From IMG/VR virus record IMGVR_UViG_3300022758_000417: DNA of 20,555 nucleotides; one strand, given 5' to 3'. Made by a program: the position numbers and the translations under genes. This stretch comes from a virus. The number at the start of each line of letters is the position of its first letter. Positions within the stretch are counted from its first letter, which is position 1. The notes under the pieces are model-generated. The model had not been told where the DNA came from. It ran no database searches and was given only the letters and a program-made list of their open reading frames with translations. This document shows, one piece after another, positions 842 to 20,555 of the stretch.

Positions 842-853
842 CAGGAGGAAGCC

Positions 854-1175: not shown

Positions 1176-1580
1176 ATGCCTTCGAAAAACGGCGTTTTCT
1201 ACGAGCTGAAGGAATCGCCTTACTCTTTTATGTACGGCGATTGTACGTTCTTCTTCTCGTCTAGGAAGCATCTTTCCAGTTTCATGGACAAGATCTGCGT
1301 TCGAACGCAATGGTTGGACGACAGCATGGAAAAGCGTTTCCACTTCTACGTCAACATGCAGCTGGTCGCCGCGTTCCAACTGTACTTCACGGTGGAGACC
1401 AGGGGGTGCTACGTCAGATTGGAAAACGGTGAGGAGCTGACATGCAGAGAGAACCTAAGATTAAATGGACTGAAAGCCAGCGTTCGCGCCTCAACTCCGC
1501 AGTCCGAAAGTACAACAACGCCATTCGACGGGCTATGCGGGCGAATCCCGCCAACGCCCAGTTCATGCCCGAGCCGGTAA
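1176..1580 (+). CDS. Transcriptional regulator, phi29 p4-like (early/late switch protein).
   Basis: RBS AAAGGAGG then ATG at 1176. N-terminus MPSKNGVFYELKESPYSFMYGDCTFFFSS...FMDK matches phi29 p4 (MPKTQRGIYHNLKESEYVASNTDVTFFFSS...FLDG). ...YFTVETRGCYVRLENGEELTCRE matches ...FYSEVEKRGFHAWLKGDNATWRE. The last 139 nt overlap the terminal-protein gene in another frame. Confidence 0.7.
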   Translation: MPSKNGVFYELKESPYSFMYGDCTFFFSSRKHLSSFMDKICVRTQWLDDSMEKRFHFYVNMQLVAAFQLYFTVETRGCYVRLENGEELTCRENLRLNGLKASVRASTPQSESTTTPFDGLCGRIPPTPSSCPSR

Positions 1581-2182
1581 GCTACAAGGAAGTCAAAGCC
1601 GAGATCAAGAGCGCGCGCGTGCTTAACAACACGGTCGCGCGCTTGCTGCGCGCTACGCGCAAAGGAGCCTTGGACTTGACGAACGTCGGAGAGGGAGGGA
1701 TCGCCACGCGCTACGAAGTGCGGGAGTTCCAGATCGCGAAAGCCGTCAACGAGCGGCGCAAGTCGCTCAGGCGCAAGAAGCTGGGGATCGACTACGGCCA
1801 GACCCTGGGGCGCATGGGAACGTTGCAGCAGAACAACCTGCTTCCCGACAAGCGCACCGCGCGAGACTTCTCTCCCATCGCCCTCAAGCGTTTCATCAAA
1901 CGTTACGAGGAGCTGAGCGCCACGAGTTCCTACGAAAGGCTGAACCGGTACTACGAGAACTATATCAAAGGCCTCGACACGGTGTTCGGCGGCTACTCCG
2001 AGTTCGATGCGGCTATAGCTCAGATCGCGAGGAAGATCGAATCCATGATGAAGTCCAATGCGGGCAAGCTCATGGAGTTCTTCGAGTCCGGAGACGAGCT
2101 TCTGAACATCGAGTACATCTATGCGCCGGAAGACCGCGCCGACAAGATGGGCTACATCCTCGACAGATGGGCTGAGCTATGA
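1442..2182 (+). CDS. Terminal protein, the primer for protein-primed DNA replication.
   Basis: RBS GGTGAGGAG, spacer of 5, ATG at 1442. It lies directly upstream of the DNA polymerase gene, with its stop overlapping the polymerase start. Resemblance to phi29 p3: ARDFSPIALKRFIKRYEEL...YYENYIKGLDTVFGGYSEFDAAIAQIARKI versus HDFDFSKVRSY...LEE...YYEKKMIQLQLNFIKSVEGSFNSFDAADELIEELKKI. The priming Ser is possibly the one in EFFESGDE. Confidence 0.75.
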   Translation: MQREPKIKWTESQRSRLNSAVRKYNNAIRRAMRANPANAQFMPEPVSYKEVKAEIKSARVLNNTVARLLRATRKGALDLTNVGEGGIATRYEVREFQIAKAVNERRKSLRRKKLGIDYGQTLGRMGTLQQNNLLPDKRTARDFSPIALKRFIKRYEELSATSSYERLNRYYENYIKGLDTVFGGYSEFDAAIAQIARKIESMMKSNAGKLMEFFESGDELLNIEYIYAPEDRADKMGYILDRWAEL

Positions 2183-2183
2183 T

Positions 2184-3872: not shown

Positions 3873-4225
3873 GCAGGTACCAACCGAGCTTGCGCGAGCT
3901 GGCCATGGAGCCGGACGAGGACAAGCGGCTCGAGATGGCCGCGCGAATCGACGAGGACGCGGCGGAACTCGACGACCGCTGGGACGAGCGCGAGGGCTGG
4001 CGAAACGAGCGCGAGGAGTGGGACGCGGAGCGCGACCGCCTGAACGCGGAGCGAGACGAGGCGATCGCCGAGCGCGACCGCTACCGCGAGGAGCGCGACG
4101 AGTCGCGCCGCAAGTACGCCGACCGGTTCTTCGCCGTCGAAGGCCAGACGCTGCTCCATGCGAACGAGGTAGGCGAGGAAGTTCGGCGCGAGCCGATCCG
4201 CTCAGCCGACGAGATCTGGGATTAA
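3869..4225 (+). CDS. Head scaffolding protein (gp7-like).
   Basis: RBS AAAGGAG then ATG at 3869. ATGA overlap with the polymerase stop. 118 aa, extremely Glu/Arg/Asp-rich with coiled-coil character. Lies immediately upstream of the capsid gene. Confidence 0.7.
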   Translation: MSRYQPSLRELAMEPDEDKRLEMAARIDEDAAELDDRWDEREGWRNEREEWDAERDRLNAERDEAIAERDRYREERDESRRKYADRFFAVEGQTLLHANEVGEEVRREPIRSADEIWD

Positions 4226-4234
4226 GGAGATATT

Positions 4235-5716
4235 ATGGCAGTGAAGCAACCTAATATGAAAGCCGCCGATTCGCCGATCGTCATGAAGGCCGGCGATACG
4301 GCAGCGCGCGAGACGGCCGCGCAGAAGGCGGTCGAAGCGACCATCAACGAGACCCCGGAGGTAGCGGCCGCGCTCGCGGCTCGCGGGATCCCGGCGACTT
4401 ACGACTCGAACAACCGCGCCTACGTGGAGCTTGCCGGAACCACCGACGAGATCCATGCCATCGGGGAGTACCTGACCAGCTACCAGCCCGCGCGAAACGC
4501 GTTCCTCAACGCGCTGGTGAACCGCATCGGCCTCACCATCGTGACATCGAAGCTGTACCGCAACCCCTGGGCGGTGTTCAAGCGCGGGTACCTCGAGTTC
4601 GGGGACACGATCGAGGAAATCTTCGTCAACCTCGCCGACGTTCACGGCTTCTACCCCGAGGGCGCGGAGGACACGTTCGCCAAGCGCGAGCTTCCCGACG
4701 TGCGCACCGCGTTCCACCGTATGAACTTCCAGAAGTTCTACAAGACGACCGTCTCCTCCCAGCAGCTGCGCCAGGCGTTCCTGTCCTGGACGGGCGTTAG
4801 CGACCTGATCGCGCGCATCATCGAGTCTCTCTACACCAGCGCCAACACGGACGAGTACTACGTCATGCGCTACTTCCTGGCCAAGTGCCTCCTCAACGGC
4901 TACATCGGCTCGGTGGAGATTCCCGCAATCGGCAAGGACAACGCCGTCGACATCGCCACGCAGTTCCAGTACATGTCCGACCTGTTCCAGTACCAGTCCA
5001 CGAAGTACAACATGGCGGGCGTGACCACCCACACCGATTTCGAAGACCAGTACTTCATCGTCACGGCCAAGTTCAAGGCCACGATGAACATGAACGTGCT
5101 GGCCACCGCATTCAACTTGGAGTACCGCGAGTTCCAGGCGCGCATGATCACGGTCGACACGTTCACCGACTTCGACTGGGTTCGCATGGACGCGCTGTTC
5201 ACCGACCCGGCCACCGGCCAGCTCGACCCGAACTACCACCGCTTCACGCAAGAGGAGATCGCGCTGCTCGAGACCGTGCCGGCGGTGCTGGTGTCCCGCG
5301 ATTGGTGGATGGTGCTGGACAACTACGTGGAGTCCGCGCAGTGGTTCAACGGCGAAGGCCTGTACTGGAACCATTGGCACCATGTGTGGAAGACCATCAG
5401 CTGCTCGCCGTTCGGCCAGGCGGCCGCCTTCACCCCGACCGCCCCGACCATCACGAGCGTGACGGTCACGCCGGCGACCGCCACCCTTTCCAAGGGAGCC
5501 GACCTGCAGCTGTCTGCCGCGGTCGTCGGAACCGGCATCGTGAACCATGGCGTGCAGTGGACGGTGACCGGAGGCGCGGCATCCGGCACGACCGTCACCA
5601 ACGGCGGGTACCTGCATGTGGCGGCCAACGAGACGGCGACGACGCTCACCGTCAAGGCAACCTCCGTCCAGGACGGAACGAAGACGGGCGAATCCACCGT
5701 CACCGTCACCGCATAG
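4235..5716 (+). CDS. Major capsid protein with a C-terminal BIG2 (bacterial Ig-like group 2) domain, as in phi29 gp8.
   Basis: RBS AAGGAG then ATG at 4235. 493 aa. The C-terminal ~90 aa (ITSVTVTPATATLSKGADLQLSAAVVGTG...VKATSVQDGTKTGESTVTVTA) is a typical BIG2 repeat. Sits between the scaffold and tail-knob genes. Confidence 0.8.
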   Translation: MAVKQPNMKAADSPIVMKAGDTAARETAAQKAVEATINETPEVAAALAARGIPATYDSNNRAYVELAGTTDEIHAIGEYLTSYQPARNAFLNALVNRIGLTIVTSKLYRNPWAVFKRGYLEFGDTIEEIFVNLADVHGFYPEGAEDTFAKRELPDVRTAFHRMNFQKFYKTTVSSQQLRQAFLSWTGVSDLIARIIESLYTSANTDEYYVMRYFLAKCLLNGYIGSVEIPAIGKDNAVDIATQFQYMSDLFQYQSTKYNMAGVTTHTDFEDQYFIVTAKFKATMNMNVLATAFNLEYREFQARMITVDTFTDFDWVRMDALFTDPATGQLDPNYHRFTQEEIALLETVPAVLVSRDWWMVLDNYVESAQWFNGEGLYWNHWHHVWKTISCSPFGQAAAFTPTAPTITSVTVTPATATLSKGADLQLSAAVVGTGIVNHGVQWTVTGGAASGTTVTNGGYLHVAANETATTLTVKATSVQDGTKTGESTVTVTA

Positions 5717-7401: not shown

Positions 7402-7415
7402 GAAAGGAGGCATGC

Positions 7416-8408
7416 ATGAACCCTATCCAATCCACTACCACCCCGTACGGGCTTCCCTGGGGCAACATGCCCAAGAACGCGCACAAATCCGCTCGCGAGC
7501 TGGACAACGCGGCCATGAACTCGCAAACGATGTTCCTCTGGCAGATGCGCCTTTACGAGCTGGCGATGAGCGTCTTCGAATGGGAGAACCTGCCGCAGGG
7601 CATCAACGAGCGCCAAATCGAATGGTGGCTCCTTCGCGACGGTTTCTGCGTGTTCCTGCATGACGAGGATATCGCGCTCGACCCTGTTCAGCGCAGCCCG
7701 GAGGGCTACGCGATCATGCAGTGCATGTTGGAGGGCAACTTCGACATCTACTCGCAGCCGGTGAACCGCATAGCCTACTCGGTGATGGGGGTCAACATCC
7801 CGCTCACCATCGAGAACTCCGTCATAATCTGGAATTCGAACTTGCGCGTGCCTACCTGGTTCGCGCTCAACATGTACGCCAAGAAGCTGTGGGCGATAGA
7901 CCGGGCGATCGATGTGAACGTGTACCAGCAGAAGACCCCGCGCGTGGTGAAATGCTCGCAGAAGCAGCGCCTGAGCTTCGAGAACATGATGGCGCAGGTG
8001 GACGAGTACAAGCCCCTTATCATGACGGACAAGGACTTCGACCTCGAATCCATCGACATCCTCGACAACTCGTCTCCGTACGTCGCCGAACAGCTCTACG
8101 AGCTGAAGGACAAGTACTGGAAGGAAGCGCTCGGATTCTTAGGGATAGCCAGCTCCGAGTCCAAATCGGAGCGCGTCATCGTGGACGAGATGCTGGCAAG
8201 CCTCGGCGGCACCGAGGCGCAGCGGCTCTGCCGCCTCGAATCCCGGCAGTTCGCGTGCAAGCAGATAAACAAGATCTTCGGACTCGACGTGGACGTGCAT
8301 TTCCGAGTGTCGGAGAAGCGCCAAGAAGAGCAGTGGGCTATCGCCGACGGCGAGTTCAATGAAAGCGAGTACGCCGAGGAGAACGGGATCGAGGTGAACG
8401 GAGAATGA
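7416..8408 (+). CDS. Head-tail connector / portal (phi29 gp10-like).
   Basis: RBS AAAGGAGG at 7403-7410, ATG at 7416 (MNPIQS). LAMSVFEWENLPQGINERQ matches phi29 gp10 (LAYQLFEWENLPPTINPSF). NMYAKKLWAIDRAIDVN matches NMYAQKMARAMDVSI. The ORF-track extension back to 7251 overlaps the tail-knob gene and was rejected. Confidence 0.8.
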   Translation: MNPIQSTTTPYGLPWGNMPKNAHKSARELDNAAMNSQTMFLWQMRLYELAMSVFEWENLPQGINERQIEWWLLRDGFCVFLHDEDIALDPVQRSPEGYAIMQCMLEGNFDIYSQPVNRIAYSVMGVNIPLTIENSVIIWNSNLRVPTWFALNMYAKKLWAIDRAIDVNVYQQKTPRVVKCSQKQRLSFENMMAQVDEYKPLIMTDKDFDLESIDILDNSSPYVAEQLYELKDKYWKEALGFLGIASSESKSERVIVDEMLASLGGTEAQRLCRLESRQFACKQINKIFGLDVDVHFRVSEKRQEEQWAIADGEFNESEYAEENGIEVNGE

Positions 8409-11415: not shown

Positions 11416-11595
11416 ATGGATGTTAACGATGTTGTCACTCTTATCGGTAGTCTGGGCTTCCCTATTGTAGCTTGCGTGGGCATGTTTTACCTGTACAATC
11501 GTACTCTTAAGGACTTTACTAGCACACTTAACGACATTGCGAGCGAGATTAAGGAGATACGGGAAGAACTTAAAGAGCTGATCAAGAATGCTTAG
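11416..11595 (+). CDS. Holin-like small membrane protein (59 aa, one transmembrane segment).
   Basis: Too short for the ORF track. RBS AGGAGGAA, spacer of 6, ATG at 11416. Translation MDVNDVVTLIGSLGFPIVACVGMFYLYNRTLKDFTSTLNDIASEIKEIREELKELIKNA has a hydrophobic core and a charged C-tail. Overlaps the endolysin start by 8 nt. Clearly AT-richer than its neighbours. Confidence 0.55.
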   Translation: MDVNDVVTLIGSLGFPIVACVGMFYLYNRTLKDFTSTLNDIASEIKEIREELKELIKNA

Positions 11596-12262
11596 GGGCA
11601 TCGACATATCCAACTGGCAAGCCGGGTTGGATGCGGATAGCGTGTTCCCGAACGTCGACTTCGTCATCTGCAAGGCGACGGAAGGGGTCGGGTTCGTCGA
11701 CGGCTATTGCGACAGCTGGGTGCAATGGTGCCGCGCTCACGGAAAGCCCTGGGGATTCTACCACTTCGCGAACTCCAACGATCCCGTGAAAGAGGCTGTC
11801 CATTTCATAGACAACACCTCTAACTACTTCGGCGAAGGTATTCCGGTGCTTGACTGGGAGGGCGACCAATCGGTTGACTGGGTCAACGAGTTCGTGAAGA
11901 TCGTCCACGACCAGACCGGCATCTGGCCATGGATCTACGCCAACCCCTGGCGCTTCAACCAGGGAGGCGTGGAGCCTGACTGCATGCGATGGATCGCGAG
12001 CTACCCGGACGTGCTGCGCCCGGGACTCGACTACGACCCCGGCGAGCCTCCGGAGACGGACGGGCTTGTGGGGTGCTGGCAGTACGCGTCGGACGGCCAG
12101 GTGCCCGGATACGCGGGCAACCTGGACGTGAATCACTTCTTCGGAAGCGTCGGCGCGTGGATGGCTTACGCGGGTGTCCCGTCTTCGGGACAACCTGACC
12201 CGTCGCCTTCGCAGTCTGTTTTGGAGAACGATAGATTCCGCGTGACAATTCAAGAGAAGTAA
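11588..12262 (+). CDS. Endolysin, GH25 muramidase (lysozyme).
   Basis: N-terminus MLRGIDISNWQAGLD...VDFVICKATEGVGFVDGY...WGFYHFAN is the classic GH25 (Cpl-1-type) signature. Stop TAA at 12260-12262. Confidence 0.85.
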   Translation: MLRGIDISNWQAGLDADSVFPNVDFVICKATEGVGFVDGYCDSWVQWCRAHGKPWGFYHFANSNDPVKEAVHFIDNTSNYFGEGIPVLDWEGDQSVDWVNEFVKIVHDQTGIWPWIYANPWRFNQGGVEPDCMRWIASYPDVLRPGLDYDPGEPPETDGLVGCWQYASDGQVPGYAGNLDVNHFFGSVGAWMAYAGVPSSGQPDPSPSQSVLENDRFRVTIQEK

Positions 12263-12452
12263 TGTATGATGGTCATGCGCCGGAAAGCAAGCTATCTTCT
12301 GCGTCTGTGGGGCACCCGGTGAAACGGGCACGGGCGCATACGGAGACAAGCCCCCTCTGTGATAGTCTTTTCGGTTAGCGCCCTTTGACTTAGCCCCTGT
12401 CGCTTGGACATCCATGATGGCAGGGGCTTCCAAGTTCAAGGGATGATAAGTC
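12263..12452 (+). ncRNA. Candidate structured RNA (possible packaging pRNA) in the 202-nt non-coding gap upstream of the packaging ATPase.
   Basis: This is the longest non-coding gap in an otherwise tightly packed module. Complementary segments: atgcgcc 12275-81 with ggcgcat 12333-39, enclosing hairpin cccg-gtgaaa-cggg 12316-29. agcccctg 12392-99 pairs with caggggct 12421-28. tgactta 12386-92 pairs with taagtca 12446-52. All phi29-like phages need a pRNA. The call is speculative. Confidence 0.25.
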
Positions 12453-12463
12453 AAAGGAGGAAC

Positions 12464-13168
12464 GTGGCTAAATACTGGGACATATCGAAAACTCTTTCTT
12501 ATAATTGCCTCTTCAATTTCATCTACGGAATCCGAGGCGCGGGCAAGACCTACACGGGACTCCAGCACTACGTCAAGCGCTACCTGCGCACGGGGCGGCG
12601 CTTCATGTACCTGCGGCGCACGGAGGAGGAGCTGAAGAACCTCACCACGCGCAAAGACGGTCGTCTGTTCAACCATGTGCAAGTCGAGTTCCCAGGTCAC
12701 GCCCTGTGGGCAGAATCGAACATCCTGCATATCGACAAGGAGATATGCGGCTACGCGCAAGCGCTGTCAACGGCGCGCAAGCTCAAGTCCGATGCGCTGG
12801 ACAACGTGGACACTATCCTGTTCGACGAGTTCGTCATCGACAAGGGTTTCCAAACGTACCTTCCCGACGAGGTGACGGCGTTCTTGGAGCTTTACGAAAC
12901 CATCGCGCGCCCAGGCTCTAGAGACTACGACGTGACGTGCATGTTCTGGGGAAACGCTGTATCTAGCGCGAACCCATACATGGATTACTTCGGCCTCGAG
13001 CTTCCTTACAAAACCGACGTTTGGAGGCGCGGCGAGTTTTTTGACGCAGATGGTGGCACCTCCCGAACTGGTCGAGGCGAAGAAGGGAACGCGTTTCTAC
13101 AAGGCCATCGAGGGCAGCTCGTATGCTGCGTACGCCGCCGAGAACAAGTGGCTTCGCGACAACCCTAA
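12464..13168 (+). CDS. DNA packaging ATPase (phi29 gp16-like), N-terminal part. The reading frame breaks at a T6 run at 13037-13042.
   Basis: RBS AAAGGAGG at 12453-60, GTG at 12464. The alternative ATG at 12443 lacks an RBS. LSYNCLFNFIYGIRGAGKTYTG (Walker A) matches gp16 (LSYDRILNFVIGARGIGKSYAM). RFMYLRRTEEEL matches QFIYVRRYKPEL. LDNVDTILFDEFVIDKGFQTYLPDEVTAFLELYETIARP (Walker B) matches YPNVSTIVFDEFIREKDNSNYIPNEVSALLNLMDTVFRN. Similarity continues in another frame after about 13040. Confidence 0.8.
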   Translation: MAKYWDISKTLSYNCLFNFIYGIRGAGKTYTGLQHYVKRYLRTGRRFMYLRRTEEELKNLTTRKDGRLFNHVQVEFPGHALWAESNILHIDKEICGYAQALSTARKLKSDALDNVDTILFDEFVIDKGFQTYLPDEVTAFLELYETIARPGSRDYDVTCMFWGNAVSSANPYMDYFGLELPYKTDVWRRGEFFDADGGTSRTGRGEEGNAFLQGHRGQLVCCVRRREQVASRQP

Positions 13169-13475
13169 GTTCATCGCGAGGAAGGGCAAGAATGCCGAAT
13201 ACCAGTTCACGCTCCTTTACTACGACGATGCTATCGGCATATGGCGCGACAACCGAAACGGTTGCTATTACGTATCGGAAGACGTTGACCGCCAATGCCG
13301 CCACGTGTTCGCCGCCACGACGGAAGACCATGAGCCGAACACTCTGCTGCTCAAAGGTTTCAAATCCTCGCCCCATCTGGCTAACTTGAAGAAGGCTTAC
13401 GACATGGGGTGCGTGCGGTACGAGTCCATGAAGCTCAACAACTGGTTTCGGGATATAGTTAGGATGGGATTATGA
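13041..13475 (+). CDS. DNA packaging ATPase, C-terminal part, in the +1 frame relative to the N-terminal part.
   Basis: PPELVEAKKGTRFYKAIEGSSY...KNAEYQFTLLYYDDAIGIWRDNRNGCYYVSED...NTLLLKGFKSSPHLANLKKAYDMGCVRYESMKLNNWFRDIV aligns with the gp16 C-terminus (SLDFSSERRKTRFGRLIDGTEYG...KFVFSIVYNGFTLGVWVDVNQGLMYIDT...NMMLITNYKNNYHLRKLASAFMNGYLRFDNQVIRNIAYELF). This frame is open from 12936. The first in-frame ATG is at 13050. Confidence 0.7.
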   Translation: MTQMVAPPELVEAKKGTRFYKAIEGSSYAAYAAENKWLRDNPKFIARKGKNAEYQFTLLYYDDAIGIWRDNRNGCYYVSEDVDRQCRHVFAATTEDHEPNTLLLKGFKSSPHLANLKKAYDMGCVRYESMKLNNWFRDIVRMGL

Positions 13476-13476
13476 T
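13455..13476 (+). repeat. Direct repeat DR1, AT[A/C]GTTAGGATGGGATT[A/G]TGAT, at the 3' end of the ATPase gene.
   Basis: 22 nt matching 13786-13807 with 2 mismatches. The core GTTAGGATGGGATT is identical in both. Each copy encodes ...VRMGL*, followed by an overlapping ATG. Confidence 0.8.
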
Positions 13477-13720
13477 CATCACGACTAAGAATGGCGACAT
13501 GGTAGATACAGTGCAGATTATCGAAGAAAACGTATATACCATAGATGATGTTAAATACGCGGTGGAAACTGACATGTATATTGCTGCAACGGTTCAGATA
13601 CGAATTTGCGATACTGGAAAGAAACAGCTGGAAGTTTCCGACCCGGAAATTGGCAAAGAAGCGCAGTACCATCTACGACAGTTCATCAAGTGCATGAAGA
13701 AGTTGGGAAGGTATTACTGA
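13472..13720 (+). CDS. Hypothetical 82-aa acidic protein in an AT-rich insert (a moron; possible anti-defence or host-takeover gene).
   Basis: ATGA overlap with the ATPase stop. GC is about 40% by hand count over the first 60 nt, against about 60% in the flanks. Bracketed by direct repeats at 13455-76 and 13786-807. Confidence 0.55.
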   Translation: MIITTKNGDMVDTVQIIEENVYTIDDVKYAVETDMYIAATVQIRICDTGKKQLEVSDPEIGKEAQYHLRQFIKCMKKLGRYY

Positions 13721-15158: not shown

Positions 15159-15307
15159 TGTTTCTAGGGCTTCCGGGATTTGCGTGGTTCGTGATCGGCG
15201 TTATAGTTGTGGCAGTGCTGGTTACCGTGGCGAATTGGTATATCATGTACTGCGTGTTCGACTGGGCAGTGCATCATGTGAAGCATGTTTGGTTGGATGA
15301 AGACTGA
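15159..15307 (+). CDS. Small membrane protein (49 aa, MFLGLPGFAWFVIGVIVVAVLVTVANWYIMYCVFDWAVHHVKHVWLDED).
   Basis: SD GGAGG, spacer of 7, ATG at 15159. The ORF-track start at 15104 lacks an RBS. One transmembrane helix and an acidic C-terminus. TATAAT lies at 15110-15115 upstream. Confidence 0.5.
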
Positions 15308-15397
15308 ATGAAGATGCATGAGGAACAAGTAACAGCGTGTCTGATTATGGCGGTCATCTTGGCCGCCTTACTCATTGTCAAACTGAGCGTGCATTGA
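15308..15397 (+). CDS. Tiny hydrophobic peptide (29 aa, MKMHEEQVTACLIMAVILAALLIVKLSVH). Low confidence.
   Basis: ATG directly after the upstream stop. No clear SD. The stop is followed immediately by the second TGAAC-N3-GTTCA-TTAATT site. Same peptide-plus-palindrome arrangement as 14980-15076. Confidence 0.25.
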   Translation: MKMHEEQVTACLIMAVILAALLIVKLSVH

Positions 15398-15416
15398 TGA
15401 ACGATGTTCATTAATT
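15398..15416 (+). promoter_or_regulatory. Palindromic operator-like site TGAACgatGTTCA followed by TTAATT (copy 2).
   Basis: See copy 1. Lies 31 nt upstream of the -35 of the consensus promoter. Confidence 0.5.
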
Positions 15417-15446
15417 GCATGATTGAGATGACAATTGGAAAATGAT

Positions 15447-15475
15447 TTGACATGAGGTGATGAAGCGTGTATAAT
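15447..15475 (+). promoter_or_regulatory. Perfect sigma70 consensus promoter, TTGACA-N17-TATAAT, reading rightwards.
   Basis: TTGACA at 15447-52, a 17-nt spacer, TATAAT at 15470-75, with TG immediately upstream of the -10. It is followed by GGG, so 15469-15478 (GTATAATGGG) equals the contig's terminal 10-mer. The promoter fires towards the inverted-repeat junction at 15519. Confidence 0.7.
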
Positions 15476-15518
15476 GGGGCTACAAAATCCACACGACAGA
15501 TGAATATGGGGGGAAAGA

Positions 15519-16321
15519 GGGTGTGGGTGGTCACGCCCGCCATGTTGTACTTCGTGGACTGGTACTGGAACAGGTCGGACATGTACTGGAACTGCGTGGC
15601 GATGTCGACGGCGTTGTCCTTGCCGATTGCGGGAATCTCCACCGAGCCGATGTAGCCGTTGAGGAGGCACTTGGCCAGGAAGTAGCGCATGACGTAGTAC
15701 TCGTCCGTGTTGGCGCTGGTGTAGAGAGACTCGATGATGCGCGCGATCAGGTCGCTAACGCCCGTCCAGGACAGGAACGCCTGGCGCAGCTGCTGGGAGG
15801 AGACGGTCGTCTTGTAGAACTTCTGGAAGTTCATACGGTGGAACGCGGTGCGCACGTCGGGAAGCTCGCGCTTGGCGAACGTGTCCTCCGCGCCCTCGGG
15901 GTAGAAGCCGTGAACGTCGGCGAGGTTGACGAAGATTTCCTCGATCGTGTCCCCGAACTCGAGGTACCCGCGCTTGAACACCGCCCAGGGGTTGCGGTAC
16001 AGCTTCGATGTCACGATGGTGAGGCCGATGCGGTTCACCAGCGCGTTGAGGAACGCGTTTCGCGCGGGCTGGTAGCTGGTCAGGTACTCCCCCGATGGCA
16101 TGGATCTCGTCGGTGGTTCCGGCAAGCTCCACGTAGGCGCGGTTGTTCGAGTCGTAAGTCGCCGGGATCCCGCGAGCCGCGAGCGCGGCCGCTACCTCCG
16201 GGGTCTCGTTGATGGTCGCTTCGACCGCCTTCTGCGCGGCCGTCTCGCGCGCTGCCGTATCGCCGGCCTTCATGACGATCGGCGAATCGGCGGCTTTCAT
16301 ATTAGGTTGCTTCACTGCCAT
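15519..16321 (-). pseudogene. Truncated, frameshifted copy of the capsid gene in the right repeat arm.
   Basis: Minus-strand translation is identical to capsid residues 1-77. A C5 run at 16089-16093 (G4 at 4463-4466 in the left copy) then shifts the frame. The copy ends at the junction, corresponding to capsid codon ~268. Confidence 0.85.
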
Positions 16322-16330
16322 AATATCTCC

Positions 16331-16687
16331 TTAATCCCAGATCTCGTCGGCTGAGCGGATCGGCTCGCGCCGAACTTCCTCGCCTACCTCGTTCGCATGG
16401 AGCAGCGTCTGGCCTTCGACGGCGAAGAACCGGTCGGCGTACTTGCGGCGCGACTCGTCGCGCTCCTCGCGGTAGCGGTCGCGCTCGGCGATCGCCTCGT
16501 CTCGCTCCGCGTTCAGGCGGTCGCGCTCCGCGTCCCACTCCTCGCGCTCGTTTCGCCAGCCCTCGCGCTCGTCCCAGCGGTCGTCGAGTTCCGCCGCGTC
16601 CTCGTCGATTCGCGCGGCCATCTCGAGCCGCTTGTCCTCGTCCGGCTCCATGGCCAGCTCGCGCAAGCTCGGTTGGTACCTGCTCAT
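16331..16687 (-). CDS. Scaffolding protein, second copy in the repeat.
   Basis: Identical translation to 3869..4225. Confidence 0.7.
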   Translation of the reverse strand: MSRYQPSLRELAMEPDEDKRLEMAARIDEDAAELDDRWDEREGWRNEREEWDAERDRLNAERDEAIAERDRYREERDESRRKYADRFFAVEGQTLLHANEVGEEVRREPIRSADEIWD

Positions 16688-18372
16688 AAGCCTGTCTCCT
16701 TTCTGATGACAAAATCACCTTCGTATAGTATAATACCGCCTTTTACGGTCTTGGAATAGAGTTTTCCCGGAAATTTCGCGCCGACATGGAAATTGTCCCA
16801 CGTGACGTGAGGATGGCACGATTCTGGCAGCCCCGCGCAATGCACGGTGAGCTTGCCGCCCTCGTCCTCGATATAGGTCTTCGGGCGCAGGAACCTGGCG
16901 CGCTGAAACGTGCTTTCGAGCTTCCACGCGCCCAATCTGTAATCGTCCACGTCAAGCTCTTCCGGGATCTCGGTTCCGGTCAAGTGGAGCGAATCGGTGT
17001 CGGCGTAGAGGAAACGATCCTTCACCTTCTGGGCTGAGCGTATCGTCTTGTTCCTCGCCCATGCCGTGATGAAAGCCCCGGCGGGAAGGTACATTCCTTC
17101 TGTCTGCTCCGGGTCGAGCAGCGGGTAGCGCACTATGCCGTCCTCGCACATGACCGGCCGGCGGCTCCGTTTGACCGGATGCGTCGCCATCTTGCCGTAC
17201 GAGGAGTTCATCTTGAGCTTCGCCATGTACCGCTTGCCCGCGTTGCCCTCCTCGGCCGCATGCACCTTATCCTCGTTGGCCGCCATTATGAAATCGTAGA
17301 ATAGCTTGTTCGATGCCTTGAACTTCCAGCCCTTGCCGTAGCGGATGGAATAGATGTTGTAGTGGTCTTTCAAAAGCGCCAAGTCGACGCTCGTCAATAC
17401 CAGCGTCTGCTCTCCTTTGGAATCGACTACGTATTCGGTCGGCATGAAGCTCAAATTGCCTTTGAGCTGCAAGCAAGGGATGAAACCGGGCTTGAGCTTG
17501 AAGTCGACGGTCACGGTCTGTATGTAGAGCGGGTATCGAGGATCCGGGACGTACTCCCCTTCGAAGAGCATCGGATCGCCGTACGGCAGTATCTCGCCTT
17601 CGACTCCGGCCATGACGGAAGGGTAGAGGCTGTTAACGTCCAGGACGATACCCTCCCCGATGTCGCGCCCTTTGAAATCGGGGTTGACGTAGGTGAAGCC
17701 GCCCTTGTAGCACGGGCGTATCTCAGCGTCGTAGTCGCACACTGGAAACGTCCGTCTGAACCCCTTCTCGCCTCCTATCGTCTTCTTGTACTCGGCGATG
17801 GCGTTCGATCCCGCCGTGATCCTGGTCGCGCCCTGGTCGATCAGCTCGCCCAAGGCGCGCGCCACGATCCTGACATCTGCCGATATGTAGTCTATCTCCT
17901 GCTGCGTGAGAACGTGATCGGGATCGCGATGCTCCGTGTAGTCTATCTCGAGCTTCGCGTCCTCTTCCTCGAAGCCGAACGCGCGCGGAATCTTCGCGAC
18001 CGGCAAGCTGATGATCTTCAGCGAATCGCAGAATTCGATATAATGCCCTCTGCTGAAATAGAGCTTGATGGTGTAGAACTGGTTCATGTCGCTGATCAGC
18101 GTCGTGAACCGGTAGGGCGCTTGCTCTCCGTGGCTGGGAATCCATTCCCATCCCGCGTCGAGCAGATGCGATATGATGAACTTCCCGTCGAATTTCAGGT
18201 TGTGGAAGTACACGCGAGCGTCCAGGGCGCGCTCGCACCATTCCACGAACCCTTCGATGGAGGTTCCGGTCGTTATATCGTAGGTTTTCAAGGTGCAAGC
18301 AGCCCACGCCCAAACTCGCGTTCGGGTCAGGTCGTCTGCCGTCGTTTCGAAATCAGCCGTGAAGCACTGCAT
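16684..18372 (-). CDS. Protein-primed family-B DNA polymerase, second copy.
   Basis: Identical translation to 2184..3872. Confidence 0.9.
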   Translation of the reverse strand: MQCFTADFETTADDLTRTRVWAWAACTLKTYDITTGTSIEGFVEWCERALDARVYFHNLKFDGKFIISHLLDAGWEWIPSHGEQAPYRFTTLISDMNQFYTIKLYFSRGHYIEFCDSLKIISLPVAKIPRAFGFEEEDAKLEIDYTEHRDPDHVLTQQEIDYISADVRIVARALGELIDQGATRITAGSNAIAEYKKTIGGEKGFRRTFPVCDYDAEIRPCYKGGFTYVNPDFKGRDIGEGIVLDVNSLYPSVMAGVEGEILPYGDPMLFEGEYVPDPRYPLYIQTVTVDFKLKPGFIPCLQLKGNLSFMPTEYVVDSKGEQTLVLTSVDLALLKDHYNIYSIRYGKGWKFKASNKLFYDFIMAANEDKVHAAEEGNAGKRYMAKLKMNSSYGKMATHPVKRSRRPVMCEDGIVRYPLLDPEQTEGMYLPAGAFITAWARNKTIRSAQKVKDRFLYADTDSLHLTGTEIPEELDVDDYRLGAWKLESTFQRARFLRPKTYIEDEGGKLTVHCAGLPESCHPHVTWDNFHVGAKFPGKLYSKTVKGGIILYEGDFVIRKETGL

Positions 18373-18373
18373 A

Positions 18374-19114
18374 TCATAGCTCAGCCCATCTGTCGAGGAT
18401 GTAGCCCATCTTGTCGGCGCGGTCTTCCGGCGCATAGATGTACTCGATGTTCAGAAGCTCGTCTCCGGACTCGAAGAACTCCATGAGCTTGCCCGCATTG
18501 GACTTCATCATGGATTCGATCTTCCTCGCGATCTGAGCTATAGCCGCATCGAACTCGGAGTAGCCGCCGAACACCGTGTCGAGGCCTTTGATATAGTTCT
18601 CGTAGTACCGGTTCAGCCTTTCGTAGGAACTCGTGGCGCTCAGCTCCTCGTAACGTTTGATGAAACGCTTGAGGGCGATGGGAGAGAAGTCTCGCGCGGT
18701 GCGCTTGTCGGGAAGCAGGTTGTTCTGCTGCAACGTTCCCATGCGCCCCAGGGTCTGGCCGTAGTCGATCCCCAGCTTCTTGCGCCTGAGCGACTTGCGC
18801 CGCTCGTTGACGGCTTTCGCGATCTGGAACTCCCGCACTTCGTAGCGCGTGGCGATCCCTCCCTCTCCGACGTTCGTCAAGTCCAAGGCTCCTTTGCGCG
18901 TAGCGCGCAGCAAGCGCGCGACCGTGTTGTTAAGCACGCGCGCGCTCTTGATCTCGGCTTTGACTTCCTTGTAGCTTACCGGCTCGGGCATGAACTGGGC
19001 GTTGGCGGGATTCGCCCGCATAGCCCGTCGAATGGCGTTGTTGTACTTTCGGACTGCGGAGTTGAGGCGCGAACGCTGGCTTTCAGTCCATTTAATCTTA
19101 GGTTCTCTCTGCAT
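18374..19114 (-). CDS. Terminal protein, second copy.
   Basis: Identical translation to 1442..2182. Confidence 0.75.
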   Translation of the reverse strand: MQREPKIKWTESQRSRLNSAVRKYNNAIRRAMRANPANAQFMPEPVSYKEVKAEIKSARVLNNTVARLLRATRKGALDLTNVGEGGIATRYEVREFQIAKAVNERRKSLRRKKLGIDYGQTLGRMGTLQQNNLLPDKRTARDFSPIALKRFIKRYEELSATSSYERLNRYYENYIKGLDTVFGGYSEFDAAIAQIARKIESMMKSNAGKLMEFFESGDELLNIEYIYAPEDRADKMGYILDRWAEL

Positions 19115-19380
19115 GTCAGCTCCTCACCGTTTTCCAATCTGACGTAGCACCCCCTGGTCTCCACCGTGAAGTACAGTTGGAACGCGGCGACCAGCTGCAT
19201 GTTGACGTAGAAGTGGAAACGCTTTTCCATGCTGTCGTCCAACCATTGCGTTCGAACGCAGATCTTGTCCATGAAACTGGAAAGATGCTTCCTAGACGAG
19301 AAGAAGAACGTACAATCGCCGTACATAAAAGAGTAAGGCGATTCCTTCAGCTCGTAGAAAACGCCGTTTTTCGAAGGCAT
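18976..19380 (-). CDS. p4-like transcriptional regulator, second copy.
   Basis: Identical translation to 1176..1580. Confidence 0.7.
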   Translation of the reverse strand: MPSKNGVFYELKESPYSFMYGDCTFFFSSRKHLSSFMDKICVRTQWLDDSMEKRFHFYVNMQLVAAFQLYFTVETRGCYVRLENGEELTCRENLRLNGLKASVRASTPQSESTTTPFDGLCGRIPPTPSSCPSR

Positions 19381-19393
19381 GGCGCACCTCCTT

Positions 19394-19702
19394 TCAATAA
19401 CGGTATTTGATATGCTTGGAAACCGTTTTCAACGCTTGCGAATGCATAACGAAGACGAGTCCGATATAATCGTCTATGACGTGGCGGCGCACAAGCTCTC
19501 GCAGGTCGTTTATGTCGTCCCGCTTCATATCGAACTTGTCGTCCTTGGTGAACATGTATTCGATGCGCCCGTTACGATGGCGCTTGAAAACGGCCACGCC
19601 TTGCGGGACGACGGCATGCGCCCATAGCTCTTTCTTCAACACCCTGTTCGACGAGTCCGCTACGAACTGCTCCATCAAATCCTTGTCTGCAAGCGACAAC
19701 AT
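19394..19702 (-). CDS. Hypothetical early protein, second copy.
   Basis: Identical translation to 854..1162. Confidence 0.6.
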   Translation of the reverse strand: MLSLADKDLMEQFVADSSNRVLKKELWAHAVVPQGVAVFKRHRNGRIEYMFTKDDKFDMKRDDINDLRELVRRHVIDDYIGLVFVMHSQALKTVSKHIKYRY

Positions 19703-19714
19703 GGCTTCCTCCTG

Positions 19715-19740
19715 AAAAAGGCCGCACGCTGAGTGCGGCC
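19715..19740 (-). terminator. Rho-independent terminator, second copy.
   Basis: Mirror image of 816..841. Confidence 0.7.
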
Positions 19741-19754
19741 TGCGATTGCGAACT

Positions 19755-20216
19755 TTAAGCGACTTCGAGGGTGAGCATCGTGCCGCGCTTGACCTTCACC
19801 TGCTTGACGACCACGTTGATAGGCTCCTCGTAGGTTGGCGCGCCGTAGACGGCGAACATCTTCTTGAGCGAACCCCACACGCCGTTCGACACGCACTGGT
19901 AGCTCTCGCCCTTGTCGTCGATGAGGACGATGCGCGGGGCTTGCTCCACGGTGCCGTCCTCGTCTGCGATTTCGATGATCTCGACGAACAGGTCTTTCAG
20001 CGCGATCTGCTTGTTGATGAAGTCGTCGATCTTGTGCGTCGGGTTGTTGGACGCGTTGTAGATCAGCTTCTTGGCATCCGCTCCAAGTTCCGGGTTCACC
20101 GAGCAGAACGTGTTGTCCTCGGGCTTGGCAAGCTCGGCGATGGCGTACGTGCGGGCAGGTGCGAGGTCGTTGACGGGCATTTCCTCGGCGATGGCGATGT
20201 CTTTGTTCTCAGTCAT
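19755..20216 (-). CDS. p5-like SSB, second copy.
   Basis: Identical translation to 340..801. Confidence 0.55.
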   Translation of the reverse strand: MTENKDIAIAEEMPVNDLAPARTYAIAELAKPEDNTFCSVNPELGADAKKLIYNASNNPTHKIDDFINKQIALKDLFVEIIEIADEDGTVEQAPRIVLIDDKGESYQCVSNGVWGSLKKMFAVYGAPTYEEPINVVVKQVKVKRGTMLTLEVA

Positions 20217-20241
20217 GGTTTTCTCCTTCTAGTCAGATGGT

Positions 20242-20505
20242 TTAAGCGTCGATGACGGTCGCGTTCTCAAGGAACGTTTCCACGGGCATGGAATAGGTCT
20301 TCTCCTCGCCTTCGACCCACTTGATCGTGCAGCCCTTGGGCAGCGCCACGCCGGCATCGCGGAAGGCGATACGGGCTTTGCGGGCGTTCATGTTGGTGTC
20401 CAGCACGACGTACTGGGCGACAGCGCGCACGCTGGGCGGGATTGAATCATCCAGTTCGTACGCGGTCAGCTCGAAACTCTTGAAAGTGCGGGTGATAGCA
20501 GCCAT
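20242..20505 (-). CDS. First early gene (p6-like?), second copy.
   Basis: Identical translation to 51..314. Confidence 0.5.
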   Translation of the reverse strand: MAAITRTFKSFELTAYELDDSIPPSVRAVAQYVVLDTNMNARKARIAFRDAGVALPKGCTIKWVEGEEKTYSMPVETFLENATVIDA

Positions 20506-20555
20506 AATGTAATCTCCTTTGATCGGTCGGCTTGCTTTGACGAATCCCATTATAC

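What the first reader, a model, noticed from the sequence alone, without database searches (positions are those of the whole stretch)
12263..12463. A 202-nt non-coding gap with several stable helices directly upstream of the packaging ATPase: a candidate pRNA
In the phi29 family, DNA packaging requires a pRNA of about 120-174 nt that binds the connector and the gp16 ATPase. This genome has the gp10/gp16-like pair, so a pRNA is expected. This is the only sizeable non-coding stretch in the collinear gene block. phi29 itself encodes the pRNA at the left end, so this location would be new.

The complementary segments seen by eye are listed in the ncRNA feature. In brief, a 7-bp helix (12275-81 / 12333-39) encloses a small tetraloop-like hairpin. 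A second domain is an extended interrupted helix (12386-12399 paired with 12421-12452) with a 21-nt apical loop. Alternatively the structure could be a translational control element covering the ATPase RBS.
Basis: inference. Interest (0 to 1): 0.55.

Follow-up and report, generated by a model that had tools for sequence, protein, structure and literature searches.

The report
pRNA-like small RNA gene before packaging ATPase
The gap upstream of the DNA-packaging ATPase gene of this small gut phage (a relative of Eggerthella phage LE1-1) holds a conserved small RNA gene that folds helix for helix like the phi29 "prohead RNA", an RNA so far reported only in Bacillus-type phages.

Summary
The 201-nt gap (12263-12463) is real and holds a small RNA gene on the + strand. 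It has three parts:
- a sigma-70-type promoter: -35 at 12242-47, -10 at 12265-70
- a 103-nt three-way-junction domain, 12277-12379
- a GC-rich 3' hairpin domain, 12382-12457, that ends on the ATPase ribosome-binding site

Evidence for a conserved RNA:
- The single sequence folds far better than shuffles (z about -4.5) on the + strand only.
- The element occurs in over 120 related phage contigs, giving 51 distinct domain-I sequences. Their ATPases are 49-98% identical to the window's.
- 34 of 39 base pairs show compensatory changes.

The architecture matches the Rfam phi29 pRNA consensus element for element. A 5-6-nt bulge is Watson-Crick complementary to the D-hairpin loop.

It is not a sequence-level member of RF00044: the Rfam model and my models do not cross-detect. 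The gene lies between the lysis genes and the ATPase gene, not at the genome's left end.

Best reading, about 0.7: a divergent packaging RNA in phages of gut Actinobacteria. Function is inferred, not shown.

The parts
12242..12247 (+). -35 box GTGACA of the RNA's own promoter, inside the 3' end of the endolysin gene
   Evidence: Consensus scan gives GTGACA-17-TATGAT, 10 of 12 matches. A TTGACA-like box sits at the same distance in all 19 lineages inspected.
12265..12270 (+). -10 box TATGAT. It ends about 7 nt before the conserved 5' end of the RNA.
   Evidence: The box reads TATGAT, TACAAT, TATACT, TATAAT, TAGAAT or TAAAAT in relatives. The 5-7 nt after it vary freely, and conservation resumes at (U)GCGCC.
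12277..12379 (+). Domain I: a three-way-junction RNA, analogue of pRNA domain I
   Evidence: Covariance models R1 and R2 hit only 12276-12383 in the window (119 and 108 bits). On 34 distinct sequences, 87.6% of cells are paired against 39-43% when partners are slid, and 34 of 39 pairs show double changes.
12279..12287 (+). Helix A, lower part, 5' strand. It pairs with 12367-12375. A 2-bp GC/GC clamp lies outside it (12277-78 / 12378-79).
   Evidence: MFE. 8 of 9 pairs show compensatory changes (helix 1).
12288..12290 (+). 3-nt bulge CAA on the 5' strand of helix A. It is the positional analogue of the phi29 C18C19A20 bulge.
   Evidence: Present in all 34 aligned sequences: mostly YAA, 4 nt in L184. 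It occupies the same place as '---' in the RF00044 consensus.
12291..12296 (+). Helix A, upper part, 5' strand. It pairs with 12361-12366.
   Evidence: 6 of 6 pairs show compensatory changes, with 74% of cells paired (helix 2).
12297..12300 (+). Junction strand UUCU between helices A and C (pyrimidine-rich)
   Evidence: Invariant UUCU in the close groups. It is unpaired in the consensus.
12301..12309 (+). Helix C, 5' strand. It pairs with 12329-12337.
   Evidence: 8 of 9 pairs show compensatory changes (helix 3). The arm folds the same way in isolation in nearly all of the 51 sequences.
12310..12314 (+). Bulge loop GGGCA on the 5' side between helices C and E (the 'right-hand' loop). GGGGC at 12309-13 is complementary to GCCCC at 12350-54.
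   Evidence: There are 15 distinct cognate duplexes across lineages; 10 have at least 5 Watson-Crick pairs, against 3 of 210 non-cognate combinations. All 5 pseudoknot column pairs show double changes (helix 4).
12315..12328 (+). E hairpin: 4-bp stem CCCG/CGGG and 6-nt loop GUGAAA
   Evidence: 4 of 4 pairs are compensatory, with 95.6% of cells paired (helix 5). The loop motif (G)UGAAA is conserved.
12340..12360 (+). D hairpin: 6-bp stem ACGGAG/CUCUGU and 9-nt loop 12346-54 (the 'left-hand' loop, carrying GCCCC)
   Evidence: 95% of cells are paired (helix 6). The loop covaries with the bulge loop.
12380..12392 (+). Pyrimidine-rich linker (CGCCCUUUGACUUA region). In this lineage it pairs with 12447-57, across the ribosome-binding site.
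   Evidence: MFE. The outer stem CCUUUGACUU/AAGUCAAAGG is replaced by CCUUAUGC/GCAUAAGG in the L032/L247 group. A C/U-rich linker pairs with the ribosome-binding site in most of the 19 folds, read by eye.
12393..12427 (+). Domain II hairpin: 10-bp GC-rich stem with a large loop holding the semi-conserved CUUG...AUGAU motif. It looks like a terminator but has no canonical U-run here.
   Evidence: Compensatory replacement GCCCCUGUC/GGCAGGGGC to GCCGCCCUCC/GGAGGGCGGC in LE1-1. A strong hairpin sits at this place in all 19 lineages, followed by a U-run in some (L186, L190). The strict terminator scan is negative.
12454..12466 (+). Ribosome-binding site AAGGAGG (12454-60) and GTG start (12464-66) of the gp16-type packaging ATPase
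   Evidence: ORF and PHROG matches. The same codon is ATG in L017.

Best explanation
The gap holds a small non-coding RNA gene transcribed rightwards by host RNA polymerase from its own sigma-70-type promoter. The RNA would start near 12277 and run about 150-180 nt if it ends at or after the 3' hairpin. I read it as this phage lineage's counterpart of phi29 prohead/packaging RNA (pRNA).

Proposed mechanism, by analogy with phi29:
- Domain I folds into a three-way junction.
- The bulge loop of one molecule pairs with the D-hairpin loop of the next (GGGGC with GCCCC here), closing a ring on the connector of the empty prohead.
- The distal helix A, with its 3-nt bulge, docks the gp16-type ATPase so that DNA can be packaged.
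- The 3' hairpin domain ends or stabilises the transcript. In this lineage it also pairs with the ribosome-binding site of the next gene.

Shown here: the promoter consensus and its conservation, the secondary structure, the covarying loop-loop complementarity, the restriction to phage contigs, and the position near the ATPase gene.

Inferred, not shown: that a discrete RNA accumulates, that the loop pairing is between molecules, that the RNA binds proheads and ATPase, and that packaging needs it.
For: 1. Stable, strand-specific fold: z = -4.35 and -4.66 on the + strand, -1.2 on the - strand. Invariant or common G-U pairs would be A-C mismatches on the other strand.

2. Conservation:
- Present in LE1-1 and MT835861.
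- Present in all 42 IMG/VR relatives whose ATPase is at least 63% identical.
- Present in 74 of 77 metagenome loci.
- Present in every Logan/ENA locus searched except L192.
- These give 51 distinct domain-I sequences.

3. Covariation: 34 of 39 pairs have changes on both sides. Cells paired are 87.6%, against 64% when shuffled and 39-43% when slid. The covariation score is 0.607 against 0.185, reached by 0 of 500 shuffles.

4. Same architecture as the RF00044 consensus (one search compared):
- a helix A closed by the 5' and 3' ends, with a 3-nt bulge on its 5' strand
- a 9-bp helix C
- a bulge on the 5' side only
- a 4-bp E stem with a 6-nt loop
- a 6-bp D hairpin
- no spacer between D and A

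5. Bulge-loop / D-loop complementarity is kept under complete sequence turnover. Examples: GGGGC/GCCCC, GGGUU/AACCC, GGGUA/UACCC, UAGGC/GCCUA, CGAUA/UAUCG, GCAAC/GUUGC, UUGCU/AGCAA, AUGCC/GGCAU, AAAGCA/UGCUUU, GUUGCC/GGCAAC, GGAC/GUCC. A shuffled-loop null gives P(5 or more pairs) = 2.6% per case.

6. A promoter at a fixed distance from the RNA's 5' end in all 19 lineages, and a linker plus hairpin domain II.

7. The genome encodes the connector and the gp16-type ATPase.

8. These are the criteria used to accept new pRNAs in PMC12670572: a 3WJ fold, paired and covarying hand loops, and gp10 plus gp16 in the genome.

9. No copy in 185,579 bacterial and archaeal species genomes.
Against: - RF00044 gives no match, even at E up to 10, in the window gap or in 12 divergent relatives. 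It scores 145 bits on phi29.
- My model R2 does not find the phi29 pRNA. Homology to known pRNAs is therefore not demonstrated, and the resemblance could be convergent.
- The gene is not at the left end in an early operon as in phi29. It lies in the late-gene direction between the lysis genes and the ATPase gene.
- The layout of promoter, structured RNA, hairpin, ribosome-binding site also fits a cis-acting leader.
- An intramolecular pseudoknot would give the same covariation.
- There is no canonical U-tailed terminator in the window.
- There are no expression or biochemical data.
- I did not examine whether the connector N-terminus has the basic RNA-binding segment of phi29 gp10.
Confidence: 0.7

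Rival explanations
1. A cis-acting leader of the ATPase operon. In this reading the structured RNA made from the internal promoter controls read-through of the following hairpin (attenuation or antitermination), or controls access to the ribosome-binding site of the next gene. It would not act in packaging.
For: - The order is promoter, structured RNA, GC hairpin, ribosome-binding site, gene in every lineage.
- In the window the outer stem 12382-92 / 12447-57 covers part of the ribosome-binding site.
- That outer stem is replaced by a compensating stem in the L032/L247 group.
- A C/U-rich linker pairs with the ribosome-binding site in most of the 19 folds, read by eye.
Against: - The downstream gene is not constant. 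It is the ATPase in the window, a 67-aa ORF in LE1-1-type genomes, and a 144-148-aa ORF followed by a cell-wall hydrolase in L182, L183 and L265-272. Domain I is unchanged throughout.
- The best conserved parts are the three-way junction, the 3-nt bulge and the covarying loop pair, none of which touches the ribosome-binding site or the hairpin.
- Sequestration of the ribosome-binding site takes different forms in different lineages and is expected to some degree from a pyrimidine-rich linker.
- No known leader or riboswitch family matches.
- This role could coexist with a packaging role.
Confidence: 0.15
2. A trans-acting phage small RNA with a function other than packaging, for example a decoy or regulator acting on host or phage factors. 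The loop-loop pairing would then be an intramolecular pseudoknot that stabilises a compact fold.
For: - The RNA has its own consensus-type promoter and a conserved compact fold.
- Covariation cannot distinguish pairing within one molecule from pairing between molecules.
- There is no sequence-level link to RF00044.
Against: - The helix-by-helix agreement with pRNA would then be coincidence. It includes the 3-nt bulge, equal C, E and D stem lengths and the one-sided bulge loop.
- The element is found only in phi29-type phages with gp10 and gp16 homologues, always within about 1.1 kb upstream of the ATPase gene.
The comparison with pRNA codes rests on the literature (PMC12670572).
Confidence: 0.12
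3. An ordinary intergenic spacer (terminator plus promoter) whose predicted structure has no function.
For: - High-GC sequence folds readily.
- The window is an error-containing assembly: a fold-back duplication and homopolymer indels.
Against: - The fold has z about -4.5 on one strand only.
- Domain I is more conserved than the flanking coding DNA.
- There are 34 covarying pairs and a covarying pseudoknot across 34 distinct sequences.
Confidence: 0.02

Closest known systems
phi29 prohead/packaging RNA (pRNA; Rfam RF00044 'Phage_pRNA', 3WJ core), known from phi29, PZA, M2/Nf, B103, SF5, GA-1, DLc1 and other Bacillus-type phages
   Same: - Encoded by a small phi29-type podovirus that has a gp10-type connector and a gp16-type ATPase.
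- Has its own sigma-70-type promoter.
- Domain I of about 100-117 nt, with the same order of elements: A, 3-nt 5' bulge, A, junction, 9-bp C, one-sided bulge loop, 4-bp E with 6-nt loop, C', junction, 6-bp D hairpin, A'.
- 3-6 Watson-Crick pairs between the bulge loop and the D loop, covarying between phages.
- A single-stranded linker followed by a 3' hairpin domain.
   Different: - No detectable sequence or covariance-model similarity in either direction.
- Helix A is shorter: 9+6 bp against 14+8 bp.
- The bulge loop is 5-6 nt rather than 9. The D loop is 7-13 nt rather than 5.
- The junction pyrimidines lie between A and C rather than between C and D.
- The bulge is YAA, not CCA.
- The gene lies between the lysis genes and the ATPase gene in the late-gene direction, not at the left end behind early promoter A1.
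- The hosts are high-GC gut Actinobacteria (Eggerthella lenta for LE1-1).
- The 3' domain overlaps the next gene's ribosome-binding site.
Predicted, unverified pRNAs of non-Bacillus phi29-like phages: Actinomyces phage Av-1 (misc_RNA 16295-16402 in NC_009643) and Streptococcus phage Cp-1
   Same: All are proposals of a pRNA in phi29-type phages outside Bacillus. Av-1 also infects an actinobacterium.
   Different: - Those predictions rest on single-sequence folds.
- The Av-1 feature overlaps ORFs on the other strand near the right end.
- My model finds nothing in Av-1 or Cp-1.
- A Nf/GA-1 model could not reliably find the Cp-1 pRNA (PMC6266182).
- The present element is supported by covariation in dozens of sequences.
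Cis-acting phage leader RNAs such as the HK022 put antitermination elements (recalled from general knowledge, not tested)
   Same: A structured RNA directly downstream of a promoter and upstream of a terminator-like hairpin and genes.
   Different: - As I recall them, put elements are two adjacent stem-loops with no three-way junction and no loop-loop pairing.
- There is no Rfam match here.
- The gene downstream of the present element varies.

Membership tests
pRNA (phi29 prohead RNA) | Encoded in a phage genome that also encodes a gp10-type connector and a gp16-type packaging ATPase (criterion used in PMC12670572) | tested here: met
   phrog_2038 upper collar connector at E = 3e-56. phrog_2150 / PF05894 ATPase at E = 2e-46 and 1e-21. 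The ATPase is 38% identical to phi29 gp16.
pRNA (phi29 prohead RNA) | Match to the Rfam covariance model RF00044 at its gathering score | tested here: not met
   No hit in the window at gathering score. No hit at E up to 10 in 12150-12560 or in 12 divergent relatives. Positive control: phi29 scores 145 bits.
pRNA (phi29 prohead RNA) | Domain I fold: helix A formed by the 5' and 3' ends, and a three-way junction with the C-E arm first and the D hairpin second | tested here: met
   RNAalifold consensus and the named structure. 34 of 39 pairs are compensatory on 34 sequences. The structure line has the same order of elements as the RF00044 consensus line.
pRNA (phi29 prohead RNA) | Three-base bulge on the 5' strand of helix A (C18C19A20 in phi29, which binds the ATPase; PMC5066667) | tested here: met
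   A 3-nt bulge at 12288-90 (CAA) is present in all 34 aligned sequences, 4 nt in one. The sequence is YAA rather than CCA. ATPase binding is not testable.
pRNA (phi29 prohead RNA) | Watson-Crick complementarity between the CE (right-hand) bulge loop and the D (left-hand) loop, covarying between phages | tested here: met
   There are 15 distinct cognate duplexes of 3-6 pairs. At least 5 pairs occur in 10 of 15 cognate cases against 3 of 210 non-cognate cases. All 5 pseudoknot column pairs show double changes.
pRNA (phi29 prohead RNA) | The loop-loop pairing is between molecules and closes an RNA ring on the prohead | not testable with these tools
   Covariation cannot separate pairing within a molecule from pairing between molecules. 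The only argument is the similar helix geometry (C 9 bp, D 6 bp).
pRNA (phi29 prohead RNA) | Domain II: a 3' hairpin after a single-stranded linker (PMC5066667) | tested here: met
   A linker of about 8-17 nt and an 8-11-bp GC hairpin are present in all 19 lineages. Compensatory changes occur between the window and LE1-1.
pRNA (phi29 prohead RNA) | Own promoter and a discrete transcript of about 120-174 nt | tested here: inconclusive
   A promoter consensus at a fixed distance is present in all lineages. No transcript data are available, and there is no canonical terminator in the window.
pRNA (phi29 prohead RNA) | Gene at the left genome end, in the early region (all known cases; PMC6266182) | tested here: not met
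   The gene lies between the endolysin and ATPase genes, in the same direction as the late genes. In phi29 those two genes abut and the pRNA gene is at 147-320.
pRNA (phi29 prohead RNA) | Binds the connector/prohead and is required for DNA packaging, but is absent from virions | not testable with these tools
   This needs biochemistry on LE1-1 and Eggerthella lenta DSM 2243.
Intrinsic (rho-independent) terminator | GC-rich stem, short loop (3-8 nt), then a U-run | tested here: not met
   The scan finds none in 11500-13600. The domain II loop is 10-14 nt, and a U-run follows in only some relatives (L186, L190).
Any other described RNA family (Rfam 15: riboswitches, leaders, sRNAs, tRNA-like elements) | Covariance-model match | tested here: not met
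   There are no gathering-score hits in the window. The sub-threshold hits are chance snoRNA and miRNA matches on the wrong strand or elsewhere.

The most novel reading that the evidence does not exclude
Packaging RNAs are not a peculiarity of Bacillus phages. They may be a widespread, fast-evolving part of phi29-type packaging motors. On this reading the window shows a deeply divergent family in phages of gut Actinobacteria. Its gene has moved next to the ATPase gene, and its 3' domain doubles as an attenuator and mask of the ribosome-binding site, coupling RNA and ATPase production. The analogous promoter-RNA-terminator cassettes upstream of the ATPase gene in AT-rich relatives (L055, L056, L287) would be further families of the same kind.
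Probability: 0.4. Interest if true: 0.8.

Novelty: new variant of a known kind. Interest (0 to 1): 0.7.

Why it matters
pRNA has been treated for almost 40 years as unique to phi29 and related Bacillus phages (PMC11476376, PMC5066667). A 2025 survey still found it only there (PMC12670572).

What a second family would give:
- It comes from phages of a different bacterial phylum, is not detectable by the existing model, and has the same helix plan and a covarying ring-closing code.
- That would show the RNA component of this motor is older or more widespread than thought.
- It would separate what is essential (helix lengths, the 3-nt bulge, the loop code) from what is free (sequence, gene position).
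- It would supply more than ten natural orthogonal kissing-loop codes and new three-way junctions for RNA nanotechnology.

It is directly testable. A cultured member exists (Eggerthella phage LE1-1 on E. lenta DSM 2243), and its record leaves this stretch unannotated.

Tried and rejected
- Rfam at gathering score and at E-value level on the window gap and on 12 relatives: no pRNA or other family.
- Loose DNA pattern GTGGGGCA-N20-30-ACGGAGA on IMG/VR: mostly chance hits, not useful.
- Model R1 (close relatives only) and R2 (20 lineages), some searches with filters off, on phi29, Av-1, Cp-1, phiCP7R, two Bifidobacterium phages, a Curtobacterium phage, MT835873, MT835826, L045-L056 and L192. Only simple-hairpin noise was found, so the family boundary lies at about 49% ATPase identity and no bridge to phi29 pRNA exists.
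- The first MFE hairpin, 12264-12278: rejected as RNA structure, because it is the -10 box and discriminator.
- Other non-coding stretches as an alternative pRNA site: 15300-15520 folds modestly (z = -2.5 on +, -1.1 on -) and looks like a promoter/operator region with no three-way junction.
- Bacterial genomes: 0 matches to a degenerate pattern for the RNA's 3' half.
- Canonical terminator: not found.
- RNAalifold on the three AT-rich relatives: too few sequences to decide.
Full report
**Context**

The window is a phi29-type podovirus genome with a collinear rightward gene block:
- SSB
- protein-primed DNA polymerase (2121-3872)
- major head protein
- tail protein
- upper collar/connector (7413-8408)
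- lower collar
- GH25 endolysin (11588-12262)
- gp16-type packaging ATPase (from GTG 12464)
- tail lysin

The closest deposited genome is Eggerthella phage LE1-1 (MW679025, 15,977 bp; host Eggerthella lenta, filed under Guelinviridae). Its ATPase is 96% identical to the window's. phi29 gp16 is 38% identical.

**The observation**

- The gap 12263-12463 is real, 201 nt long, and is the only sizeable gap inside the gene block.
- As RNA, the + strand folds at -86.9 kcal/mol, z = -4.35, with 0 of 200 shuffles as good. The - strand gives z = -1.2.
- Trimmed to 12277-12460, the fold is -83.6 kcal/mol, z = -4.66.
- Rfam finds no family in the window at gathering score. Nothing relevant appears at E up to 10 in the gap.

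**Relatives**

- LE1-1 has the same element directly after its lysozyme gene, in a stretch that carries no annotation. A 67-aa ORF then follows before the ATPase gene.
- Between the window and LE1-1, the first about 118 nt are identical except for 2 nt in a loop. The flanking end of the lysozyme gene differs more.
- The 3' hairpin has changed on both strands: GCCCCUGUC/GGCAGGGGC becomes GCCGCCCUCC/GGAGGGCGGC.

I collected relatives through the ATPase protein from three sources:
- 54 IMG/VR loci
- 80 metagenome loci
- 13 Logan/ENA loci, chosen at 72-47% ATPase identity from a protein search

The element is present in:
- all 42 IMG/VR loci whose ATPase is at least 63% identical
- 74 of the 77 metagenome loci searched
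- every Logan/ENA locus searched, down to 50% ATPase identity, except L192 at 47%

Of the three metagenome loci without a hit, two have less than 270 nt upstream of the ATPase gene. The third, L264, has only a partial ATPase match. Altogether there are 51 distinct domain-I sequences. A degenerate pattern for the RNA's 3' half finds nothing in 185,579 bacterial and archaeal species genomes.

**Structure**

On the 15 close sequences, RNAalifold and a structure I named both give a three-way junction. I built covariance model R1 from these. R1 found the divergent copies. R2, built from 20 lineages, realigned 35 sequences as alignment A7.

Results on A7, 34 distinct rows:

| Measure | Observed | Control |
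|---|---|---|
| Cells forming standard pairs | 87.6% | 64% shuffled; 39-43% with partners slid 1-3 columns |
| Pairs with at least one change on both sides | 34 of 39 | mean 26.2 in shuffles, reached by 0 of 500 |
| Covariation score | 0.607 | 0.185, reached by 0 of 500 shuffles |

Folding the C-E arm and the D arm in isolation gives the same shapes in nearly all 51 sequences, with no alignment involved. Frequent G-U pairs fix the strand as +.

Parts in window coordinates:

| Part | Coordinates |
|---|---|
| GC clamp | 12277-78 / 12378-79 |
| Helix A, lower | 12279-87 / 12367-75 |
| 3-nt bulge CAA | 12288-90 |
| Helix A, upper | 12291-96 / 12361-66 |
| Junction UUCU | 12297-12300 |
| Helix C | 12301-09 / 12329-37 |
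| One-sided bulge GGGCA | 12310-14 |
| E hairpin (loop GUGAAA) | 12315-28 |
| D hairpin | 12340-60 |
| D loop | 12346-54 |

**The loop-loop pairing**

In the window, GGGGC (12309-13) is complementary to GCCCC (12350-54) in the D loop. In the closest groups this pairing is invariant as GGGC/GCCC. In the divergent lineages both loops are entirely different and still complementary:
- GGGUU/AACCC
- GGGUA/UACCC
- GGAC/GUCC
- UAGGC/GCCUA
- CGAUA/UAUCG
- GCAAC/GUUGC
- UUGCU/AGCAA
- AUGCC/GGCAU
- AAAGCA/UGCUUU
- GUUGCC/GGCAAC

Two weaker cases exist: GUC/GAC and GCU/AGC.

An alignment-free test gave these results:
- Ten of the 15 distinct cognate duplexes have at least 5 consecutive Watson-Crick pairs.
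- Only 3 of 210 non-cognate combinations do.
- Only 2.6% of trials with the loop letters shuffled do.

In A7, the five pseudoknot column pairs all show changes on both sides.

**Comparison with phi29 pRNA**

As a control, RF00044 finds the phi29 pRNA at 145 bits. Its consensus structure line and that of my model list the same elements in the same order:

| Element | phi29 pRNA | This family |
|---|---|---|
| Helix A, lower | 14 bp | 9 bp |
| Bulge on the 5' strand of A | 3 nt (CCA) | 3 nt (CAA) |
| Helix A, upper | 8 bp | 6 bp |
| Junction A/C | 1 nt | 4 nt |
| Helix C | 9 bp | 9 bp |
| Bulge loop, 5' side only | 9 nt | 5-6 nt |
| E stem / loop | 4 bp / 6 nt | 4 bp / 6 nt |
| Helix C 3' strand | follows E directly | follows E directly |
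| Junction C/D | 3 nt | 2 nt |
| D stem | 6 bp | 6 bp |
| D loop | 5 nt | 7-13 nt |
| Helix A 3' strand | follows D with no spacer | follows D with no spacer |

The literature gives these as the hallmarks of pRNA (PMC5066667; PMC12670572):
- a conserved secondary structure despite about 12% sequence identity
- the essential three-base bulge in helix A, which binds the ATPase
- the CE bulge loop and D loop, which pair between molecules and covary
- a domain II hairpin after a linker

The 2025 survey accepted new pRNAs on exactly three grounds: the fold, paired covarying hand loops, and gp10 plus gp16 in the same genome. All of its 50 pRNAs are from Bacillus-type phages. A 2024 review calls pRNA unique to phi29 and related Bacillus phages (PMC11476376). 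The present element meets those structural criteria.

It is not detectable with RF00044. My R2 does not detect the pRNA of phi29 and finds nothing in Av-1, Cp-1, phiCP7R or the other phages tried. Homology is therefore unproven, and the family is distinct at the sequence level.

**Gene organisation**

- In all 19 lineages inspected, a TTGACA-like box, a 16-18-nt spacer and a TATAAT-like box precede the RNA. The -10 box ends about 7 nt before the conserved 5' end.
- In the window this promoter is GTGACA (12242-47), 17 nt, TATGAT (12265-70). It is one of the three best + strand promoter matches in the genome.
- Between lineages the -10 box stays a -10 box while the next 5-7 nt vary freely.
- The stretch 12263-12276, which the single-sequence fold drew as a hairpin, is therefore promoter DNA.
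- After domain I come a pyrimidine-rich linker and an 8-11-bp GC hairpin with a large loop (motif CUUG...AUGAU). A U-run follows in some lineages only. A strict terminator scan is negative in the window.
- In the window group the linker pairs with the ribosome-binding-site region (12382-92 / 12447-57). The L032/L247 group has a compensating version, CCUUAUGC/GCAUAAGG.
- The gene downstream is the ATPase in most lineages. In others it is a small extra ORF, or an ORF plus a cell-wall hydrolase, and the ATPase gene follows within about 1.1 kb.
- In phi29 the endolysin and ATPase genes abut, and the pRNA gene lies at the left end behind early promoter A1.

**Interpretation**

The best-supported explanation is a packaging RNA analogous to phi29 pRNA. 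On this view rings form through the bulge-loop / D-loop code on the connector, and helix A with its bulge holds the ATPase.

- Shown: the promoter consensus, the fold, the covarying tertiary or quaternary pairing, restriction to phi29-type phage contigs, and linkage to the ATPase gene.
- Inferred: a discrete transcript, pairing between molecules, prohead and ATPase binding, and a requirement for packaging.

Rivals:
- A cis-acting leader that controls read-through or translation of the next gene. It is weakened by the variable downstream gene and by the fact that the most constrained features do not touch the hairpin or the ribosome-binding site. It may be a second role of the 3' domain.
- A trans-acting RNA of unrelated function with an intramolecular pseudoknot.

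I put the pRNA reading at about 0.7.

The gap, its stability, the small hairpin and the second domain are confirmed. The 7-bp helix 12275-81 / 12333-39 is not the conserved pairing. The interpretation as a pRNA at a new location is supported as far as sequence analysis can go.

**Novelty**

This is a new variant of a known kind. The novelty rests on four points:
- no cross-detection with RF00044 in either direction
- a different host phylum
- a different gene position
- a cultured member (LE1-1) on which the prediction can be tested

Noticed in passing
window 1-5035 and 15520-20555: The left 5,035 nt are repeated as a perfect inverted copy at the right end, apart from a 1-nt indel in a G-run (about 4463-66 against 16090-92). 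The junction cuts the major head protein gene. This is probably an assembly fold-back or chimera, or a snap-back defective genome. The real genome would be about 15.5-16 kb, like LE1-1.
   Followed up: partly
window about 13032-13037: The ATPase ORF is split (12464-13168 and 13041-13475) by one extra T in a T-run relative to LE1-1. This is most likely a sequencing error, not a programmed frameshift.
   Followed up: partly
window 15308-15520: A perfect TTGACA-17-TATAAT promoter lies at 15447-15475 (+). It is preceded by a GC hairpin and an AT-rich palindrome (z = -2.5 on the + strand). This is probably the early promoter/operator region at a genome end. The LE1-1 record is deposited as circular, which is unexpected for a protein-primed phage.
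   Followed up: partly
L001 (LE1-1) 12733-12936; also L011, L016, L019-L026, L029-L031, L034: About half of the close relatives carry one extra small ORF (67 aa in LE1-1) between the RNA and the ATPase gene. It starts at the ribosome-binding site that serves the ATPase in the window. Its function is unknown.
   Followed up: no
L055 2805-3005, L056 2745-3005, L287 about 1014-1200: AT-rich distant relatives (ATPase 37-39% identical to the window's for L055/L056) also have a consensus promoter, a structured RNA of about 115 nt starting GAUAGAGGUU, and, in L055/L056, a U-tailed terminator, directly upstream of the ATPase gene. An E-like hairpin covaries: CCAU-GAUGA-AUGG, CCUU-GAUGA-AAGG, UGG-GUGAAA-CCA. 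In L287 a 3-nt 5' bulge and an ACCA/UGGU loop pair are visible. R2 does not hit L055 or L056 (L287 was not searched), and three sequences are too few to decide.
   Followed up: partly
L221 2023-2130: One metagenome contig has a hybrid domain I. Its 5' half is identical to the window's, but its 3' half is different and does not pair in helix C. This is probably a chimeric or recombinant contig.
   Followed up: no
L179 (Actinomyces phage Av-1) 16295-16402: The RefSeq record annotates a 'packaging RNA' that overlaps ORFs on the opposite strand near the right end. My family model finds nothing there or elsewhere in Av-1.
   Followed up: partly
window 12477-12505: A second promoter-like match, GGGACA-17-TATAAT (10 of 12), lies just inside the ATPase coding region. 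Conservation was not examined, and it may be chance.
   Followed up: no
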